Positions 43,459 to 56,398 are shown, counted from the first letter of the stretch. The stretch: DNA of 56,497 bases from Bacteroidales bacterium (GCA_029942245.1 JAOZTN010000004.1:1-56497), one strand, 5' to 3'. The notes: a model not told the origin generated them from the sequence alone. Program-made: numbers and translations.

Positions 43459-44352
43459 TTATTTCGACTTTTTAAAGATATAGATTAAACTTGAATAATT
43501 TCTTTTACCCCCCAATGCTGCCAGGTTAGAAATTAACCCCAAAATCATCGCGCTAAAAAATTTGTTGGATCCATGTTTATATTTTTCGCTGAGCAAGGAA
43601 ATATAGAATGAATCAAAAATCATTGCTTTTGTTTTTATATGTTCAAATCCATGTTTGGACATTAGCGCCTTAATCGTTTTCGGGTTAAAATGATAAATGT
43701 GTCTGGGTACATCATAGGCTGCCCAATATGGGCCATATCTTTTTGCGTCGTACGAATTCATGTTGGGCAGTGCTACAATTAGCGTGCCGTTGGCATCGAG
43801 CTTATCATGGAATGCAGCAATGCGGTCTTCCAGCGGATATACATGTTCAAGCACATGCCACAGGCTGATACAGTCGAGACTCGAGTGGTCAATCCCATGA
43901 AGCCCTGCCTCATCATGAATTTTTAATCCGTGCGTATTAATGGCTTCTGTTCTTGCAAGTTCATTTGGCTCAATTCCGATAACCGACCATCCGGAAATTT
44001 TCATGGTCCCCAGGAAATCCCCGGTTCCGCAGCCATAATCGAGAAGCCGTTTGCCTGAAACATATTTATTAAGGATCCTTCTTTTTGATTTGAGGGTATA
44101 GGATCGGGCAAAATGAAAAAGACGGTTTACTAAACCCCTGGAGGTTTTGGAATGCGATATGTAAGCGTTAGAATCATAGTATTTTAATGATTCTCCGACA
44201 TCGGGTCTCGGGTTGGTAAAGCAAAATCCACAATCATTACAGCTTGAAATGCTAAAGCTTGTTTGTGTTACAAAATGATCTTTGCAATCCAAAAATGTAG
44301 AAATAGATTTGGAATTGCATATAATACAGCTGTTTATGTTTTCCTGGGCCAT
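43459..44352 (-). CDS. class I SAM-dependent methyltransferase with N-terminal Cys4 zinc-ribbon
   Basis: 297 aa with CIICNS...CNDCGF and SAM motif I LLDYGCGTGDFL. Confidence 0.85.
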   Translation of the reverse strand: MAQENINSCIICNSKSISTFLDCKDHFVTQTSFSISSCNDCGFCFTNPRPDVGESLKYYDSNAYISHSKTSRGLVNRLFHFARSYTLKSKRRILNKYVSGKRLLDYGCGTGDFLGTMKISGWSVIGIEPNELARTEAINTHGLKIHDEAGLHGIDHSSLDCISLWHVLEHVYPLEDRIAAFHDKLDANGTLIVALPNMNSYDAKRYGPYWAAYDVPRHIYHFNPKTIKALMSKHGFEHIKTKAMIFDSFYISLLSEKYKHGSNKFFSAMILGLISNLAALGGKRNYSSLIYIFKKSK

Positions 44353-44368
44353 AGTTTCACGTGGAACA
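44352..44368. repeat. 17-bp direct repeat copy 1 (TAGTTTCACGTGGAACA), near-palindrome centred on CACGTG
   Basis: Identical to 44480-44496. It starts at the first base of the methyltransferase ATG. Confidence 0.9.
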
Positions 44369-44385
44369 AAGGGTCAAAGATAAGA

Positions 44386-44420
44386 GATTATGGATTATTA
44401 ATTATGGATTATGGATGAGG
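44386..44420. repeat. degenerate heptamer array GATTATG GATTATT AATTATG GATTATG GATGAGG
   Basis: Read directly: 5 units, period 7. Confidence 0.85.
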
Positions 44421-44449
44421 AATCGAGAGGTATAGGTTGCCACCCAAAG

Positions 44450-44477
44450 CCTAATGCCTATCGCTCAATGCCTAACT
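44450..44477. repeat. degenerate heptamer array CCTAATG CCTATCG CTCAATG CCTAACT
   Basis: Read directly: 4 units, period 7. Confidence 0.8.
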
Positions 44478-44479
44478 TG

Positions 44480-44496
44480 TAGTTTCACGTGGAACA
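44480..44496. repeat. 17-bp direct repeat copy 2 (TAGTTTCACGTGGAACA)
   Basis: Identical to 44352-44368. It lies 8 nt after the mnmG stop codon. Confidence 0.9.
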
Positions 44497-44504
44497 TTAC
44501 TGGG

Positions 44505-46376
44505 TTAACTACCCAGGTAAATGGCCAGAACAGAAATATCAGCAGGAGAGACTCCACTGATACGTGCTGCCTGCCCAATGGTTCTTGGGCGGATCTTGTT
44601 GAGTTTTTCGCGGGCCTCGAATGAGAGGGAGGTCAGCTGTTGGTAGTCGATATCGTCTTTGATCACGAGATTTTCAAGTTTTCCAAGTCGGTTCGCCAGG
44701 TCTCTTTCCTTGTCTATATAACCCTGGTATTTAATCCGGATCTCTGCTTGTTCAATAATCTCATCGTTGATACCATCCAATGATCCGATAAAGCCTGACA
44801 AGCTTTCAATACCCCTTATCAGGTCTCTGAAGTGAAGTTGTGGTCGCAGTAGAAGGGAGCCGACCTTCACTTTTTGTTTTAAAGCATCTGTCCCCTTCTC
44901 GGCAAGGATGTGATTCACCTCTTCCGGTGAAGCGCTTTCCTTTTTGCAAAAGCGGATGATCTGCGTTAGCAGCTCTTCTTTGTGAAGCACCTTGTCGAGC
45001 CTGGATTGATCTGCAAGTCCTATTTCGTGTCCCCTTGGAGTAAGACGCAGATCTGCATTGTCCTGCCTGAGAAGGATACGATATTCAGCACGGGAAGTGA
45101 ACATGCGGTAGGGCTCATCTACACCTTTTGTTATAAGGTCGTCGACCAACACTCCTATATAGGCTTCAGCGCGGCCAAGAATGAAATCTTCATCCTTGTT
45201 CAGTTTACGGTGAGCATTGATACCGGCAATTAAGCCCTGGGCCGCTGCCTCCTCATATCCCGTGGTGCCATTGATCTGCCCGGCAAAGTACAGGTGTTCC
45301 ACGAGTTTTGTTTCCAGTGAATATTTAAGCTGCTCCGGTGGGAAATAATCATATTCGATGGCATAACCCGGACGAAAGACCCTGGCCTGTTCGAATCCAG
45401 GAATCAGGCGGAGCGCCTTATATTGTACTTCTTCCGGCAGGGAGGATGAAAAGCCATTCAGGTAATACTCGATGGTGGTCCATCCCTCCGGCTCTACAAA
45501 GAGCTGATGCTTATCCTTGCCGGCAAAGCGATCGATCTTATCCTCGATCGATGGACAATATCTTGGGCCAACTCCCTCTATCCTTCCGGTGAACATGGGA
45601 GAAAACTGAAAACCCGTGCGCAATGCATCATGCACTTTTTTGTTTGTATAGGCAAGATAGCAGCTGCGCTGCTTCTTTAATACAGGTGTATCAGTAAAAG
45701 AAAACTTCGAGGGTGTTTCATCGCCGGGCTGTTCTTCCAGCTTTGTAAAATCAATGGTCCGCCCGTCAATTCTTACAGGGGTACCTGTTTTCATGCGATC
45801 GGCTGAAAAGCCCAGGTCCACCAAACTTTCTGTGATCCCCATGGAGGCAATCTCACCCATCCTTCCTCCTGAGATCTTTTTCTCACCTATATGGATGATC
45901 CCATTCAGGAATGTTCCGTTGGTGAGGATGACGGCCCTGGCATCAATACGATGATCCATGGCTGTTTTAACGCCAACTACTTTTCCGTTTTCAATAATGA
46001 GAGAGGCTACCATGTCCTGCAAAAAATCCAGTCCAGGAATTTGCTCCAGCTGATTTCTCCATTCCATAGAAAAGAGCATGCGATCGCTCTGCGCACGTGG
46101 GCTCCACATGGCCGGACCTTTAGATTTGTTCAACATTCTGAACTGTATCATGGTCTTATCGGTGACGATACCTGAAAGTCCTCCAAGAGCATCTATCTCT
46201 CTGACAATCTGTCCCTTAGCAATTCCGCCCATGGCCGGATTACAGGACATCTGTGCCATATTCGACATGTTCATGGTTATCAGGAGCACGGAAGACCCGA
46301 GCCTGGCAGCGGCGGCAGCAGCTTCACAACCGGAATGACCGGCACCAACCACGATCACATCATACTGACCGAACAT
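44505..46376 (-). CDS. mnmG: tRNA uridine-5-carboxymethylaminomethyl(34) synthesis enzyme MnmG (GidA)
   Basis: 623 aa with the FAD motif [15 protein letters not shown], and with [11 protein letters not shown] and [18 protein letters not shown]. Confidence 0.97.
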
Positions 46377-52923: not shown

Positions 52924-52978
52924 GGCATATGGCACATGGCATAAGTTTCCATGTTTCAAGTCTCGAGTCTTAAGTTTC
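52924..52978. repeat. run of degenerate heptamer arrays (GGCATAT GGCACAT GGCATAA ... CAAGTCT CGAGTCT TAAGTTT)
   Basis: Read directly: period 7 with one phase slip. Confidence 0.7.
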
Positions 52979-53005: not shown

Positions 53006-53026
53006 CCTGCACCCTGTACCTTGCAC
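53006..53026. repeat. degenerate heptamer array CCTGCAC CCTGTAC CTTGCAC
   Basis: Read directly: 3 units. Confidence 0.75.
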
Positions 53027-53034
53027 CTTTTATT

Positions 53035-53060: not shown

Positions 53061-54590
53061 ATGACAAAAGAAATTCGTGTCCGTTTTGCACCCAGCCCAA
53101 CCGGCCCGCTACATATCGGGGGTGTAAGGACAGCCTTGTATAATTACCTTTTCGCAAAACACAATAAGGGGAAGATGATCCTCCGAATAGAGGATACCGA
53201 TCAAACCAGGTTTGTACCCGGGGCAGAAGACTATATTGTTGAGTCATTCAAATGGTGTGGCATTAAATTCGACGAGGGTGTAGATGTTGGCGGTGAATAT
53301 GGCCCCTACCGGCAATCGGAGAGAAAATCGATATACCTGGACTATGCTGACAGGCTGGTAAAAAGCGGCCATGCTTATTATGCTTTCGATACACCTGAAG
53401 AACTTGGGGGTATGCGCAAAGAACTTGAGGCTGCCGGTGCCAGGTATACCAGTTATAATGTCGAATCGCGGAAGAAAATGAGTAACTCATTGACCTTATC
53501 GAACGAAGAGGTCATGCGCAGGCTCTCTGTTGGCGAGGCATATGTGATTCGTTTCAAGATGCCGGAAAATGAAATGATCATCCTCCATGACGAGATCAGA
53601 AAAGATGTTGAAGTACATTCTTCTACACTGGACGATAAAGTGCTATATAAGTCCGACGGCATGCCCACCTATCATCTTGCGAACGTGGTAGATGACTACC
53701 TGATGAAGATCAGCCATGTAATTCGTGGGGAAGAGTGGTTACCATCATTGCCCTTGCATGTATTGCTGTATCGCCACCTGGGCTGGGAAGATGTCATGCC
53801 GAAATTTGCACATCTCCCCCTTCTTATGAAGCCTGACGGCAAAGGCAAACTGAGCAAGCGAGATGGAGACCGGATGGGATTCCCGGTATTTCCCCTGGAG
53901 TGGAAAGACCCCAAAAATGATGAGATTTCCCGTGGCTACAGGGAGGATGGTTATTTCCCGGATGCCTTTGTAAATATGCTGGCCCTGCTGGGCTGGAACC
54001 CCGGAACAGAACAGGAAATATTCGATATGGCAGGACTTGCCGAGCAGTTTAGCCTTGAGCGAGTGAATAAGTCGGGGGCGAGGTTTGATCCGGAGAAAGC
54101 AAAGTGGTTCAATCATCAATATCTCATAGAGAAGAGCGATGAAGAACTGGCAGAAGCTTTTGCTTCGATTGTAGAATCCAAAGGGTGCCAGATACCGGGT
54201 ACCGGGTACATGGAGAGAGTTGTTGGGCTGGTGAAGGAAAGGGTAAATTTTGTGCATGAGATCTGGGACCAGGCTTCTTTCTTTTTTGAAGCACCAACAT
54301 TTTATGATGAGAAGACGGTGAAGAAACGCTGGAAAGATAATACCGGGCAGTTGCTGACCGATGTATTAAGTATAATTAGGGCATCAGATCCTTTCGAAAG
54401 GGATGTCATCCACGACAAAGTAGCAGCCTATCTTGAAGAGAAAGAGATCGGTATGGGACAGGTGATGATCGGAATGCGCCTGTGTCTGGTTGGCAGTGGT
54501 ACGGGTCCTGACCTTTTTACCATCATGGAAATGATAGGGATTGAGGAGACGATTGCAAGGATTGAAAAGGGGATTCAAGAGCTCTCATAA
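53061..54590 (+). CDS. gltX: glutamate--tRNA ligase
   Basis: 509 aa with RFAPSPTGPLHIGGVRTALYNY (HIGH motif) and KLSKR (KMSKS motif). Confidence 0.97.
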   Translation: MTKEIRVRFAPSPTGPLHIGGVRTALYNYLFAKHNKGKMILRIEDTDQTRFVPGAEDYIVESFKWCGIKFDEGVDVGGEYGPYRQSERKSIYLDYADRLVKSGHAYYAFDTPEELGGMRKELEAAGARYTSYNVESRKKMSNSLTLSNEEVMRRLSVGEAYVIRFKMPENEMIILHDEIRKDVEVHSSTLDDKVLYKSDGMPTYHLANVVDDYLMKISHVIRGEEWLPSLPLHVLLYRHLGWEDVMPKFAHLPLLMKPDGKGKLSKRDGDRMGFPVFPLEWKDPKNDEISRGYREDGYFPDAFVNMLALLGWNPGTEQEIFDMAGLAEQFSLERVNKSGARFDPEKAKWFNHQYLIEKSDEELAEAFASIVESKGCQIPGTGYMERVVGLVKERVNFVHEIWDQASFFFEAPTFYDEKTVKKRWKDNTGQLLTDVLSIIRASDPFERDVIHDKVAAYLEEKEIGMGQVMIGMRLCLVGSGTGPDLFTIMEMIGIEETIARIEKGIQELS

Positions 54591-55872: not shown

Positions 55873-55900
55873 GGTTACTGGTCACTGGCTTCTGGTTACT
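55873..55900. repeat. left arm of 28-bp inverted repeat, itself a heptamer array (GGTTACT GGTCACT GGCTTCT GGTTACT)
   Basis: It is complementary to 56342-56369 at 26 of 28 positions and overlaps the stop codon of the four-helix-bundle gene. Confidence 0.9.
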
Positions 55901-56273
55901 TGTTTAAGCTTCTCTCCAATGTTTGAATAAATACATTCAGTTTTTCCCCCAGCAAAACGACAATCTCTTTGATCTCCTTATAGTTTTTTTGATCTCTAAG
56001 TGAACCCGTCAGGTATAAGGTTTCTAGGTGGTCAAGGGTTTCGTCATTCGAAGCCTGAGCATAAATGAGGAAATGCAAATATTCCTTAACATACCTTCTT
56101 CGTCCATACCCTTCAACAATATTGGATTTAACAGATTTCGAAGACCTGCGAATCTGGGAAGCAGTTTCGTAACGCTCAAAATCAGGCAGGCCCATAGTCA
56201 TTTTATGAATTGCCAAAACTGATTTCAGTGACAACTCCCAGATATGTAGTTTTTTGTAACTCAATTTATACAA
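55896..56273 (-). CDS. four-helix-bundle protein (23S rRNA intervening-sequence protein family, TIGR02436-like)
   Basis: 125 aa. [54 protein letters not shown] is the typical signature of this family. Confidence 0.85.
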
Positions 56274-56341
56274 TCCTTTGTTTACATATTAATACCCAAA
56301 AAGTAAAAATGTCCCACAAGAATTTTCAAATATTTGTAACC

Positions 56342-56369
56342 AGCAACCAGAAGCCAGTGACCAGCAACC
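56342..56369. repeat. right arm of 28-bp inverted repeat (AGCAACC AGAAGCC AGTGACC AGCAACC)
   Basis: Reverse complement of 55873-55900 with 2 differences. Both differences become G-U pairs in the minus-strand (gene-sense) RNA. Confidence 0.9.
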
Positions 56370-56398
56370 AAAAACAACGAATCAGGATACCTTAATTA

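What the first reader, a model, noticed from the sequence alone, without database searches (positions are those of the whole stretch)
44352..44496. Perfect 17-bp direct repeats (near-palindromic, CACGTG core) bracket a 111-bp segment that contains two different heptamer arrays
Seen in sequence: TAGTTTCACGTGGAACA occurs identically at 44352-44368 and 44480-44496. The first copy abuts the methyltransferase ATG and the second lies 8 nt past the mnmG stop. The inner 14 nt, GTTTCACGTGGAAC, match their own reverse complement at 12 of 14 positions, as expected for a dimeric DNA-binding site. Within the 111 bp between the copies, two blocks of degenerate period-7 repeats stand out: GATTATG-like x5 and CCTAATG-like x4. 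Inference: one option is a target-site duplication flanking a small non-autonomous insertion or the remnant of an IVS-like cassette (compare 55873-56369). The other is a pair of regulator sites able to loop the methyltransferase promoter.
Basis: seen in the sequence. Interest (0 to 1): 0.6.

Follow-up and report, generated by a model that had tools for sequence, protein, structure and literature searches.

The report
Two parS centromere sites beside mnmG
The two identical 17-base repeats are the standard bacterial chromosome-segregation sites (parS, bound by ParB); they are the only two in this genome and are conserved next to the mnmG gene in relatives, so this is a real but ordinary feature, not a mobile-element scar.

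Summary
TAGTTTCACGTGGAACA occurs exactly twice, at 44352-44368 and 44480-44496. These are the only copies in the 3.05-Mb genome.

On the gene (minus) strand each copy reads TGTTCCACGTGAAACT. That is 15 of 16 matches to the universal chromosomal parS consensus TGTTNCACGTGAAACA.

- **Cognate protein:** the genome has one parA-parB operon, on another contig. Its ParB carries the Arg/Gly pair that defines parS specificity.
- **Conservation in the genus:** in all 14 same-genus spacers recovered intact, both palindromes sit at the same two places, just after the mnmG stop and just before the methyltransferase ATG. The DNA between them varies from 72 to 204 bp centre to centre.
- **Conservation in the phylum:** across 80 Bacteroidota species, 70 have exact parS sites beside mnmG.
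- **Rejected readings:** a target-site duplication, a dedicated looping repressor and an RNA helix all lack support.
- **Heptamer arrays:** these are a genome-wide intergenic habit of this lineage (424 period-7 arrays), not part of the site.

One local peculiarity remains. The second parS lies between a conserved Bacteroidota -7 promoter box and the methyltransferase start codon, so ParB might also damp that gene. This is untested.

This scan has already reported parS at or in mnmG on other DNA, in at least 37 genomes.

The parts
44481..44496 (.). parS-A: 16-bp ParB-binding palindrome, reading TGTTCCACGTGAAACT on the minus strand, 8 nt downstream of the mnmG stop codon
   Evidence: Exact repeat. 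It matches the consensus TGTTNCACGTGAAACA at 15 of 16 positions (Table 1 of PMC7022226). The 14-bp core is conserved at this position in all 14 same-genus spacers.
44353..44368 (.). parS-B: an identical 16-bp parS. It lies 7 nt downstream of the -7 promoter box and ends 1 nt before the methyltransferase ATG; the 17-bp repeat overlaps the A of the ATG.
   Evidence: It is conserved 0-1 nt (two cases 9-10 nt) before the ATG in all 14 same-genus spacers.
44375..44382 (-). TATCTTTG, matching the Bacteroidota -7 promoter consensus TAnnTTTG, for the methyltransferase gene
   Evidence: TATCTTTG or TATATTTG is present 6-8 nt upstream of parS-B in all 14 same-genus spacers and is invariant in the alignment of the three closest species. 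The promoter consensus itself comes from established knowledge and was not tested here.
44386..44416 (.). Heptamer array GATTATG x4.4 (CCATAAT on the gene strand). It is filler between the two parS sites and one instance of a genome-wide class of intergenic period-7 arrays.
   Evidence: TRF. Seven arrays of this unit family exist in the genome, and there are dispersed hits in same-genus genomes. Copy number differs among the three closest species.
44450..44477 (.). Degenerate heptamer block (CCTAATG-like x4). It is a decayed counterpart of the G-rich heptamer arrays found at the same place in G013 and G004.
   Evidence: Read from the sequence and partly detected as direct repeats D3 and D4. 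It is below the TRF threshold. The orthologous arrays are seen.
44505..46376 (-). mnmG (gidA), the gene to which parS is linked across Bacteroidota
   Evidence: Pfam GIDA, E = 2e-161. Exact parS lies beside mnmG in 70 of 80 Bacteroidota species.
43459..44352 (-). Class I SAM-dependent methyltransferase (Methyltransf_23) whose 5' leader is essentially parS-B
   Evidence: Pfam PF13489, E = 1.5e-23. The mnmG-to-methyltransferase order is conserved in the genus and in two genera of the same family.

Best explanation
The two repeats are the chromosome's parS sites, the centromere-like loading sites of the ParABS segregation system. A ParB dimer recognises each 16-bp palindrome through its helix-turn-helix. 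By analogy with studied ParBs it then binds CTP, closes into a clamp and slides onto flanking DNA, building the partition complex that ParA moves. What is shown here: the sequence identity to parS, the uniqueness in the genome, positional conservation in relatives, and the presence of a cognate parAB operon with parS-specific ParB residues. What is inferred: actual ParB binding, spreading and a segregation role. The 111 bp between the sites is not an insert with a function of its own. It holds the methyltransferase promoter plus fast-evolving heptamer arrays of the type that fill intergenic DNA throughout this genome.
For: - Sequence: the sites read TGTTCCACGTGAAACT, against the B. subtilis/C. 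glutamicum consensus TGTTNCACGTGAAACA. The half-sites GTTCCAC and GTTTCAC are the known ParB half-sites (found through the literature hit).
- Uniqueness: GTTYCACGTGRAAC, and even the 12-mer core, occur only at these two places in the 93%-complete genome. The 16-mer consensus gives 2 hits at up to 1 mismatch, against 0 for a reversed control.
- Conservation in the genus: all 14 same-genus spacers have two exact cores at the same two positions, while the middle is unalignable and varies in length. In most same-genus genomes these were the only exact cores found. Exceptions are G015, which holds two such loci, and G007, where none was found. The 1-mismatch extras are at the level of the control.
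- Conservation beyond the genus: other families of the order have two sites about 1.9-2.1 kb apart, which is the length of mnmG. In G017 and G018 one of the two lies in the mnmG-methyltransferase spacer. Of 80 Bacteroidota species, 70 have exact parS next to mnmG.
- No RNA-type covariation: positions 4 (Y) and 11 (R) vary independently, and all four combinations are seen, including the non-pairing C..A. This fits a protein half-site GTTYCAC, not an RNA helix.
- Cognate proteins: there is one ParB_N gene in the genome, preceded by and overlapping a ParA-family ATPase gene. The ParB scores 182 bits on TIGR00180 (cut-off 58) and is below the cut-off for Noc. It aligns to solved ParB/Spo0J structures at E = 1e-44 to 1e-50 and has the GERRxRA box.
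- Specificity residues: R164, Y170, K175 and G192 correspond to Caulobacter R173, T179, A184 and G201. This is the RXXG pattern that PMC7383237 reports as invariant in parS-binding ParBs.
- Origin proximity (suggestive): in the near-complete relative G013, the cumulative GC skew of the 1.23-Mb contig reaches its global minimum in the 20-kb bin that begins 10 bp after the start of parS-A and contains the rest of the pair.
Against: - No binding data exist for this organism.
- Origin proximity is not established. The skew minimum in G013 is shallow, a plateau from about 270 to 710 kb. The window has no DnaA-box cluster (15 matches against 16.9 expected).
- dnaA and parAB lie on other contigs in G000, G004 and G016; in G013 parB is on another contig and dnaA was not found.
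- The 16th base is T rather than the consensus A.
- No canonical SMC was detected, so the usual downstream partner of ParB-parS may be missing.
Confidence: 0.93

Rival explanations
1. Target-site duplication flanking a small non-autonomous mobile insertion or cassette remnant.
For: The geometry fits formally. Two family-level relatives (L018, L019) have a 36-45-nt mnmG-methyltransferase spacer with a single copy of the palindrome, like an empty site. Genus members have two copies around extra DNA.
Against: - The 17-mer and the non-array part of the 111-bp segment have no other copy in the genome.
- The segment has no terminal inverted repeats.
- Both copies keep a 100% conserved 14-bp core in all 28 copies of the 14 same-genus spacers, while the DNA between them has diverged beyond alignment. 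This indicates selection on the repeats themselves, not neutral scars.
- The repeat is the universal parS sequence.
- Closely spaced parS pairs beside mnmG are common across the phylum without any insert.
- A historical local duplication of parS cannot be excluded, but it is not evidence for mobility.
Confidence: 0.02
2. Paired operators of a dedicated (non-ParB) transcription factor that loops or occludes the methyltransferase promoter.
For: The site is a dyad with only two copies in the genome. One copy lies between the conserved -7 box and the ATG, a classic operator position.
Against: - The sequence is the canonical parS, and the genome encodes a ParB with the parS-reading residues.
- The same palindrome follows mnmG across the phylum, whatever the neighbouring gene, often upstream of mnmG or on both sides of it.
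- Centre-to-centre spacing varies from 72 to 204 bp with no helical phase.
- No regulator gene is linked to the locus.
Confidence: 0.03
3. An RNA-level element: the two self-complementary copies pair in an mnmG-methyltransferase transcript, or each forms a hairpin, acting as a terminator or processing signal. Alternatively they are recombinase sites of an invertible promoter.
For: Two copies of a palindrome are complementary to each other, and the minimum-free-energy fold does pair them. The segment between them carries a promoter.
Against: - The fold is no more stable than shuffled sequence: z = +1.03, with 172 of 200 shuffles folding at least as well.
- The commonest variant gives C-A mismatches, and there is no compensatory change.
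- The promoter box points toward the methyltransferase in all 14 same-genus spacers, so no inverted state is seen.
Confidence: 0.02

Closest known systems
Chromosomal parS / ParB (Spo0J) of the ParABS system (B. subtilis and C. glutamicum consensus TGTTNCACGTGAAACA; Table 1 of PMC7022226)
   Same: The same 16-bp palindrome (15 of 16 matches), the same half-sites GTTCCAC and GTTTCAC, few copies per chromosome, a clustered arrangement, and a cognate ParB with an RXXG specificity pattern and a GERRxRA box.
   Different: Here the parAB operon is not next to the sites; it is on another contig, as is parB in near-complete relatives. Origin proximity is only suggested. No canonical SMC was found.
Low-copy parS chromosomes such as Hyphomonas neptunium (2 sites) and Burkholderia cenocepacia chromosome I (2 sites) (PMC7022226, Table 1)
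   Same: There are exactly two parS sites per chromosome.
   Different: These are different phyla. In this genus both sites share one 150-nt intergenic spacer that also holds a promoter.
P. aeruginosa intergenic parS3 and parS4 upstream of PA0011 and PA0013, where ParB binding represses the adjacent genes (PMC7022226, section 10)
   Same: A genuine centromere site lies in a promoter region, so ParB could incidentally repress the neighbouring gene.
   Different: Repression is shown in Pseudomonas and is only a possibility here. The review also reports that B. subtilis Spo0J does not affect genes next to its parS sites.
parS sites flanking or embedded in mnmG, reported earlier in this scan on other genomes (e.g. 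e1-2623175 in a marine flavobacterium; e1-1356522)
   Same: The same motif and the same linkage to mnmG. My own survey found it in 70 of 80 Bacteroidota species.
   Different: In this genus both sites lie downstream of mnmG instead of flanking it, separated by variable heptamer arrays.
Short tandemly repeated heptamers (STRR) of cyanobacteria (from memory, not tested here)
   Same: Many different 7-bp units form short tandem arrays, concentrated in intergenic DNA.
   Different: The phylum and the units differ. This comparison concerns only the filler between the parS sites, not the sites themselves.

Membership tests
Chromosomal parS (ParABS centromere) | A 16-bp inverted repeat matching TGTTNCACGTGAAACA | tested here: met
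   Both copies match at 15 of 16 positions, and the 14-bp core GTTYCACGTGRAAC is exact.
Chromosomal parS (ParABS centromere) | A cognate chromosomal ParB with parS-reading residues (R173 and G201 in Caulobacter numbering) encoded in the genome | tested here: met
   There is a single ParB_N gene on contig C34. It scores 182 bits on TIGR00180, above the cut-off of 58. R164 and G192 fall at the aligned positions.
Chromosomal parS (ParABS centromere) | A ParA (Soj) Walker ATPase partner | tested here: met
   L023:552-1403 is a ParA/MinD-superfamily ATPase directly upstream of parB, overlapping it by 11 nt. Its scores are below the curated cut-offs of every NCBIfam model it hit, so the assignment rests on superfamily plus gene order.
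Chromosomal parS (ParABS centromere) | Few copies, far above chance, conserved at orthologous positions in relatives | tested here: met
   The genome has two copies against about 0 expected. Pairs are conserved in all 14 same-genus spacers and lie next to mnmG in 70 of 80 Bacteroidota species.
Chromosomal parS (ParABS centromere) | Location in the origin-proximal domain | tested here: inconclusive
   The cumulative GC-skew minimum of G013 contig C2 falls in the bin 691.8-711.8 kb, and the parS pair is at 691.79-691.94 kb, straddling the lower edge of that bin. The minimum is a shallow plateau. There is no DnaA-box cluster in the window. dnaA is on other contigs.
Chromosomal parS (ParABS centromere) | Specific ParB binding and CTP-dependent spreading from the site | not testable with these tools
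   This needs EMSA or bio-layer interferometry, or ChIP-seq.
Target-site duplication of a MITE or IS-type insertion | The element is present in several genomic copies | tested here: not met
   Only the heptamer array has dispersed matches. The rest of the 111 bp, and the 17-mer itself, are unique.
Target-site duplication of a MITE or IS-type insertion | Terminal inverted repeats just inside the duplicated target | tested here: not met
   None were found. The only inverted repeats are the palindromes themselves and an AT-rich array palindrome.
Target-site duplication of a MITE or IS-type insertion | Presence/absence polymorphism among close relatives, with flanking repeats decaying neutrally | tested here: not met
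   All 14 same-genus spacers carry both repeats with an invariant 14-bp core, while the interior is unalignable. Single-site spacers occur only at family distance (L018, L019).

The most novel reading that the evidence does not exclude
In this genus the centromere has been arranged so that parS-B forms the whole 5' leader of a SAM-methyltransferase gene, between the -7 box and the ATG. parS-A sits at the end of mnmG. ParB loading or clamp traffic could therefore gate both read-through from mnmG and initiation at the methyltransferase promoter. That would couple expression of this unknown methyltransferase to the state of the partition complex or the cell cycle. The expandable heptamer arrays would set the distance between the two loading sites.
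Probability: 0.2. Interest if true: 0.35.

Novelty: already known. Interest (0 to 1): 0.15.

Why it matters
The main value is as annotation. It marks the chromosome's centromere, and probably the origin-proximal region, in an uncultured Bacteroidota lineage known only from fragmented metagenome bins. It also shows that the 'repeat-flanked insert' is not mobile DNA. The survey made along the way gives a practical landmark: parS is tied to mnmG in 70 of 80 Bacteroidota species, usually as a pair. This can help locate partition sites, and possibly origins, in Bacteroidota assemblies where dnaA is not a reliable guide. The placement of a parS site inside a conserved promoter leader is a minor, testable curiosity.

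Tried and rejected
- **Recalled regulator motifs:** before the literature hit I compared the dyad from memory with Rex, CRP/FNR, LacI-family, CIRCE, Fur and DnaA-box motifs. None fitted.
- **Mobile-element reading:** rejected after the genome-wide copy count, the similarity search of the spacer and the inverted-repeat search.
- **RNA helix or terminator:** rejected by the fold z-score of +1.03 and the lack of covariation.
- **Invertible promoter:** rejected because the -7 box has the same orientation in all 14 same-genus spacers.
- **Placing oriC:** this failed. A DnaA-box scan of the window was at chance, GC skew within the 56-kb window is dominated by gene strand, and dnaA and parAB are on other contigs. 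The skew of a 1.23-Mb contig from a relative was only suggestive.
- **Livny et al. 2007 (PMC2168934):** the paper could not be read because it is not held. Its content is cited only through PMC10197239 and PMC7022226.
- **SMC search:** a search with TIGR02168 found nothing above the cut-off. Other condensin types (MukBEF, MksBEF) were not searched.

Full report
**1. Observation**

The window is a whole contig (C4) of a 3.05-Mb, 198-contig, 93%-complete assembly. In the region of interest all genes run on the minus strand: a DUF4175 protein, an RsbW-like kinase, ybeY, mnmG (44505-46376), a Methyltransf_23 SAM-methyltransferase (43459-44352) and a large histidine kinase.

The 17-mer TAGTTTCACGTGGAACA is present at 44352-44368 and 44480-44496 with no mismatch. 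No further copy exists with up to 3 mismatches in the window, and shuffles give a mean of 0.08. No further copy exists with up to 2 mismatches in the genome.

The upstream copy ends 8 nt after the mnmG stop. The downstream copy overlaps the A of the methyltransferase ATG. The inner 14-mer is self-complementary at 12 of 14 positions.

The GATTATG array is detected by TRF at 44386-44416, with 4.4 copies. The CCTAATG-like block is four degenerate units below the TRF threshold.

**2. What the repeat is**

Read on the gene strand, each copy is TGTTCCACGTGAAACT. A full-text search for the 12-nt cores returned almost only papers on ParB/parS.

Table 1 of the review PMC7022226 gives the chromosomal parS consensus of B. 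subtilis and C. glutamicum as TGTTNCACGTGAAACA. It lists GTTCCAC and GTTTCAC as the ParB half-sites. The window copies match that consensus at 15 of 16 positions.

In the whole genome the degenerate core GTTYCACGTGRAAC, and even the 12-mer TTYCACGTGRAA, occur only at these two places. The 16-mer consensus gives 2 hits at up to 1 mismatch, against 0 for a reversed control. At up to 2 mismatches it is no better than the control, 6 against 9. The genome therefore has exactly two recognisable parS sites.

**3. Cognate proteins**

The assembly has one ParB_N gene, on contig C34. It is a 294-aa protein that scores 182 bits on TIGR00180 (cut-off 58) and stays below the cut-off of the Noc model. A ParA/MinD-family ATPase gene precedes it and overlaps it.

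The ParB aligns to solved ParB, Spo0J and Noc structures at E = 1e-44 to 1e-50 and contains the GERRxRA motif.

Jalal et al. (PMC7383237) showed that four positions decide between parS and the Noc site. These are Caulobacter R173, T179, A184 and G201. They report R173 and G201 as invariant in extant ParBs, and note that about 28% of ParBs have K or R at position 184.

In the alignment the corresponding residues here are R164, Y170, K175 and G192. This is the parS-specific RXXG pattern.

**4. Relatives**

The order mnmG then methyltransferase is conserved in the genus and in two other genera of the family.

In all 14 same-genus spacers recovered intact there are exactly two exact cores. One lies 1-16 nt after the mnmG stop in 12 of them; in the other two, L007 and L012, which have longer spacers, it lies 156 and 64 nt after the stop. 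The other ends 0-1 nt before the methyltransferase ATG, or 9-10 nt in two cases.

A TAnnTTTG box always lies 6-8 nt upstream of the second site. This is the Bacteroidota -7 promoter consensus, from established knowledge.

Between the sites, length and sequence vary freely. Centre-to-centre distance is 72-204 bp, with fractional helical turns scattered over the whole range. In the alignment of the three closest species, both sites and the -7 box are invariant, while the rest differs by gain and loss of heptamer units.

Positions 4 (Y) and 11 (R) of the core vary independently within and between copies. This is what a protein half-site GTTYCAC predicts, and the opposite of RNA-type covariation.

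In most same-genus genomes the spacer pair holds the only exact cores found. The exceptions are G015, which holds two such loci, and G007, in which none was found. The 1-mismatch extras are as frequent as for the reversed control.

In other families of the order, the two exact or near-exact sites lie about 1.9-2.1 kb apart, the length of mnmG. In G017 and G018 one of the two lies in the mnmG-methyltransferase spacer, so the pair there most likely flanks the gene.

A phylum-wide sample of 80 species, taken as mnmG plus or minus 3 kb, gave these counts:

| Position of exact parS relative to mnmG | Species |
|---|---|
| Any exact parS adjacent to mnmG | 70 |
| Both sides | 34 |
| Upstream only, mostly as pairs 35-50 bp apart | 28 |
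| Downstream only | 8 |

The nearest MnmG sequences come from uncultured Bacteroidales and Lentimicrobiaceae-type MAGs.

**5. Rivals**

*Target-site duplication.* The family-level relatives with a single site in a 36-45-nt spacer look superficially like empty sites. Several facts speak against mobility:
- The segment has no second genomic copy apart from its heptamer array.
- It has no terminal inverted repeats.
- The repeats are under far stronger constraint than the DNA they enclose.
- The repeats are a universal functional motif.

A local duplication of parS in the genus ancestor may well be how the second downstream site arose. That is centromere evolution, not mobility.

*Dedicated looping repressor.* This is not supported. 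The motif is parS and the cognate ParB is present. The motif follows mnmG rather than the methyltransferase across the phylum. Spacing is unphased.

*RNA structure.* The transcript of the spacer folds no better than shuffles, z = +1.03.

*Invertible promoter.* The promoter box has one orientation in all 14 same-genus spacers.

**6. Origin proximity**

This could not be settled. The window has no DnaA-box cluster. dnaA and parAB are on other contigs in G000, G004 and G016; in G013 parB is on another contig and dnaA was not found.

For the near-complete relative G013 I fetched nearly all of the 1.23-Mb contig that carries the parS pair, leaving a 32-kb gap at 60-92 kb. The cumulative G-C excess falls, plateaus between about 270 and 710 kb, and reaches its global minimum in the bin 691.8-711.8 kb. 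It then rises steadily to the contig end.

The parS pair is at 691,790-691,937, straddling the lower edge of that bin. This fits an origin-proximal centromere, but the minimum is shallow.

PMC10197239 also reports that parS clusters, rather than dnaA, mark the origin region in the gut bacteria it studied, one Bacteroidota species among them, and that two Bacteroidota species lack recognisable condensins. I found no SMC_prok_B match above the cut-off in this genome.

**7. The heptamer arrays**

These are not specific to this locus. TRF finds 424 non-overlapping period-7 arrays in the genome. That is by far the commonest period; period 9 has 189, and periods 8 and 14 about 119 each. The arrays use 183 distinct units.

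About 69% of the period-7 rows lie outside long open frames, although such space is only about 9% of the genome. The GATTATG unit family has 7 arrays in this genome and many hits in same-genus genomes.

Earlier notes on this window describe the same habit elsewhere on the contig. Between the parS sites, the arrays simply make the spacer length labile.

**8. Mechanism and verdict**

The best explanation, at about 0.93, is that these are the two chromosomal parS sites.

Shown here:
- the motif identity
- uniqueness in the genome
- positional conservation in relatives
- a cognate ParAB with parS-reading residues

Inferred from studied systems (PMC7022226, PMC7383237):
- ParB dimers nucleate on each palindrome
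- they close as CTP-bound clamps and spread
- the complex is segregated by ParA

The one local oddity is that parS-B fills the gap between a conserved -7 box and the start codon of the methyltransferase. PMC7022226 reports that P. aeruginosa ParB represses genes downstream of intergenic parS3 and parS4. The same review reports that B. subtilis Spo0J does not affect genes beside its sites. A regulatory side effect here is therefore possible, at about 0.2, but unproven.

The feature is real, canonical and already known in kind. This scan has already reported parS at or in mnmG on other DNA, with 38 notes in at least 37 genomes.

Noticed in passing
Whole genome G000; in the window e.g. 52924-52943, 53008-53029, 54193-54209, 56338-56370: Period-7 tandem arrays are by far the commonest tandem-repeat class: 424 non-overlapping arrays with 183 distinct units. 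About 69% lie outside long open frames, which leave only about 9% of the genome uncovered. This is an STRR-like intergenic habit in a Bacteroidota lineage.
   Followed up: partly
Loci L025-L104 (mnmG plus or minus 3 kb in 80 Bacteroidota species): Exact parS (GTTNCACGTGNAAC) lies within tens of bp of mnmG in 70 of 80 species: 34 on both sides, 28 upstream only (mostly pairs 35-50 bp apart), 8 downstream only. The linkage of the centromere to mnmG is phylum-wide, even though parAB is elsewhere in the relatives checked.
   Followed up: partly
L063 (Terrimonas ferruginea), 35-930 bp upstream of mnmG: Nine exact parS cores lie within about 900 bp upstream of mnmG, far more than the usual pair.
   Followed up: no
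L059 (Tenacibaculum halocynthiae) downstream of mnmG; L098 (Chitinophagales MAG) upstream of mnmG: Beside one canonical parS, each locus has four copies of a core variant GTTYCATGTGGAAC (CATGTG instead of CACGTG) at roughly 60-430-bp intervals. This may be a lineage-specific degenerate or variant parS array.
   Followed up: no
L027, L061, L065 (about 1.47-1.49 kb into mnmG) and L100 (about 1.85 kb into mnmG): An exact parS core lies inside the mnmG coding sequence in four Bacteroidota species, at a similar position in three of them. This recalls the in-gene parS arrays that this scan reported in other phyla.
   Followed up: no
G000 whole genome: No SMC_prok_B (TIGR02168) match above the cut-off; the best is 18.6 bits. 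This agrees with the statement in PMC10197239 that two Bacteroidota species lack recognisable condensins. The assembly is 93% complete, and other condensin types were not searched.
   Followed up: partly
G015: C7:13430-13558 and C300:1006-1211: This same-genus bin holds two different mnmG-parS-methyltransferase loci and has about 6% contamination. It is probably a mixture of two strains or species rather than a true duplication.
   Followed up: no
L023:1393-2277 (ParB of G000, contig C34): The ParB has lysine (K175) at the position equivalent to Caulobacter A184. PMC7383237 calls this substitution 'permissive' and reports K or R there in about 28% of ParBs. It has tyrosine at the position equivalent to T179.
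   Followed up: partly
L006 and L009 (G001, G006) compared with the window: Within a genome the two parS copies often share the same Y4/R11 variant and the same flanking base: both T..G in G001 and G006, both C..A in G000, G013, G004, G009 and G005. This hints at concerted evolution (gene conversion) between the two sites. In seven other species the copies differ.
   Followed up: no
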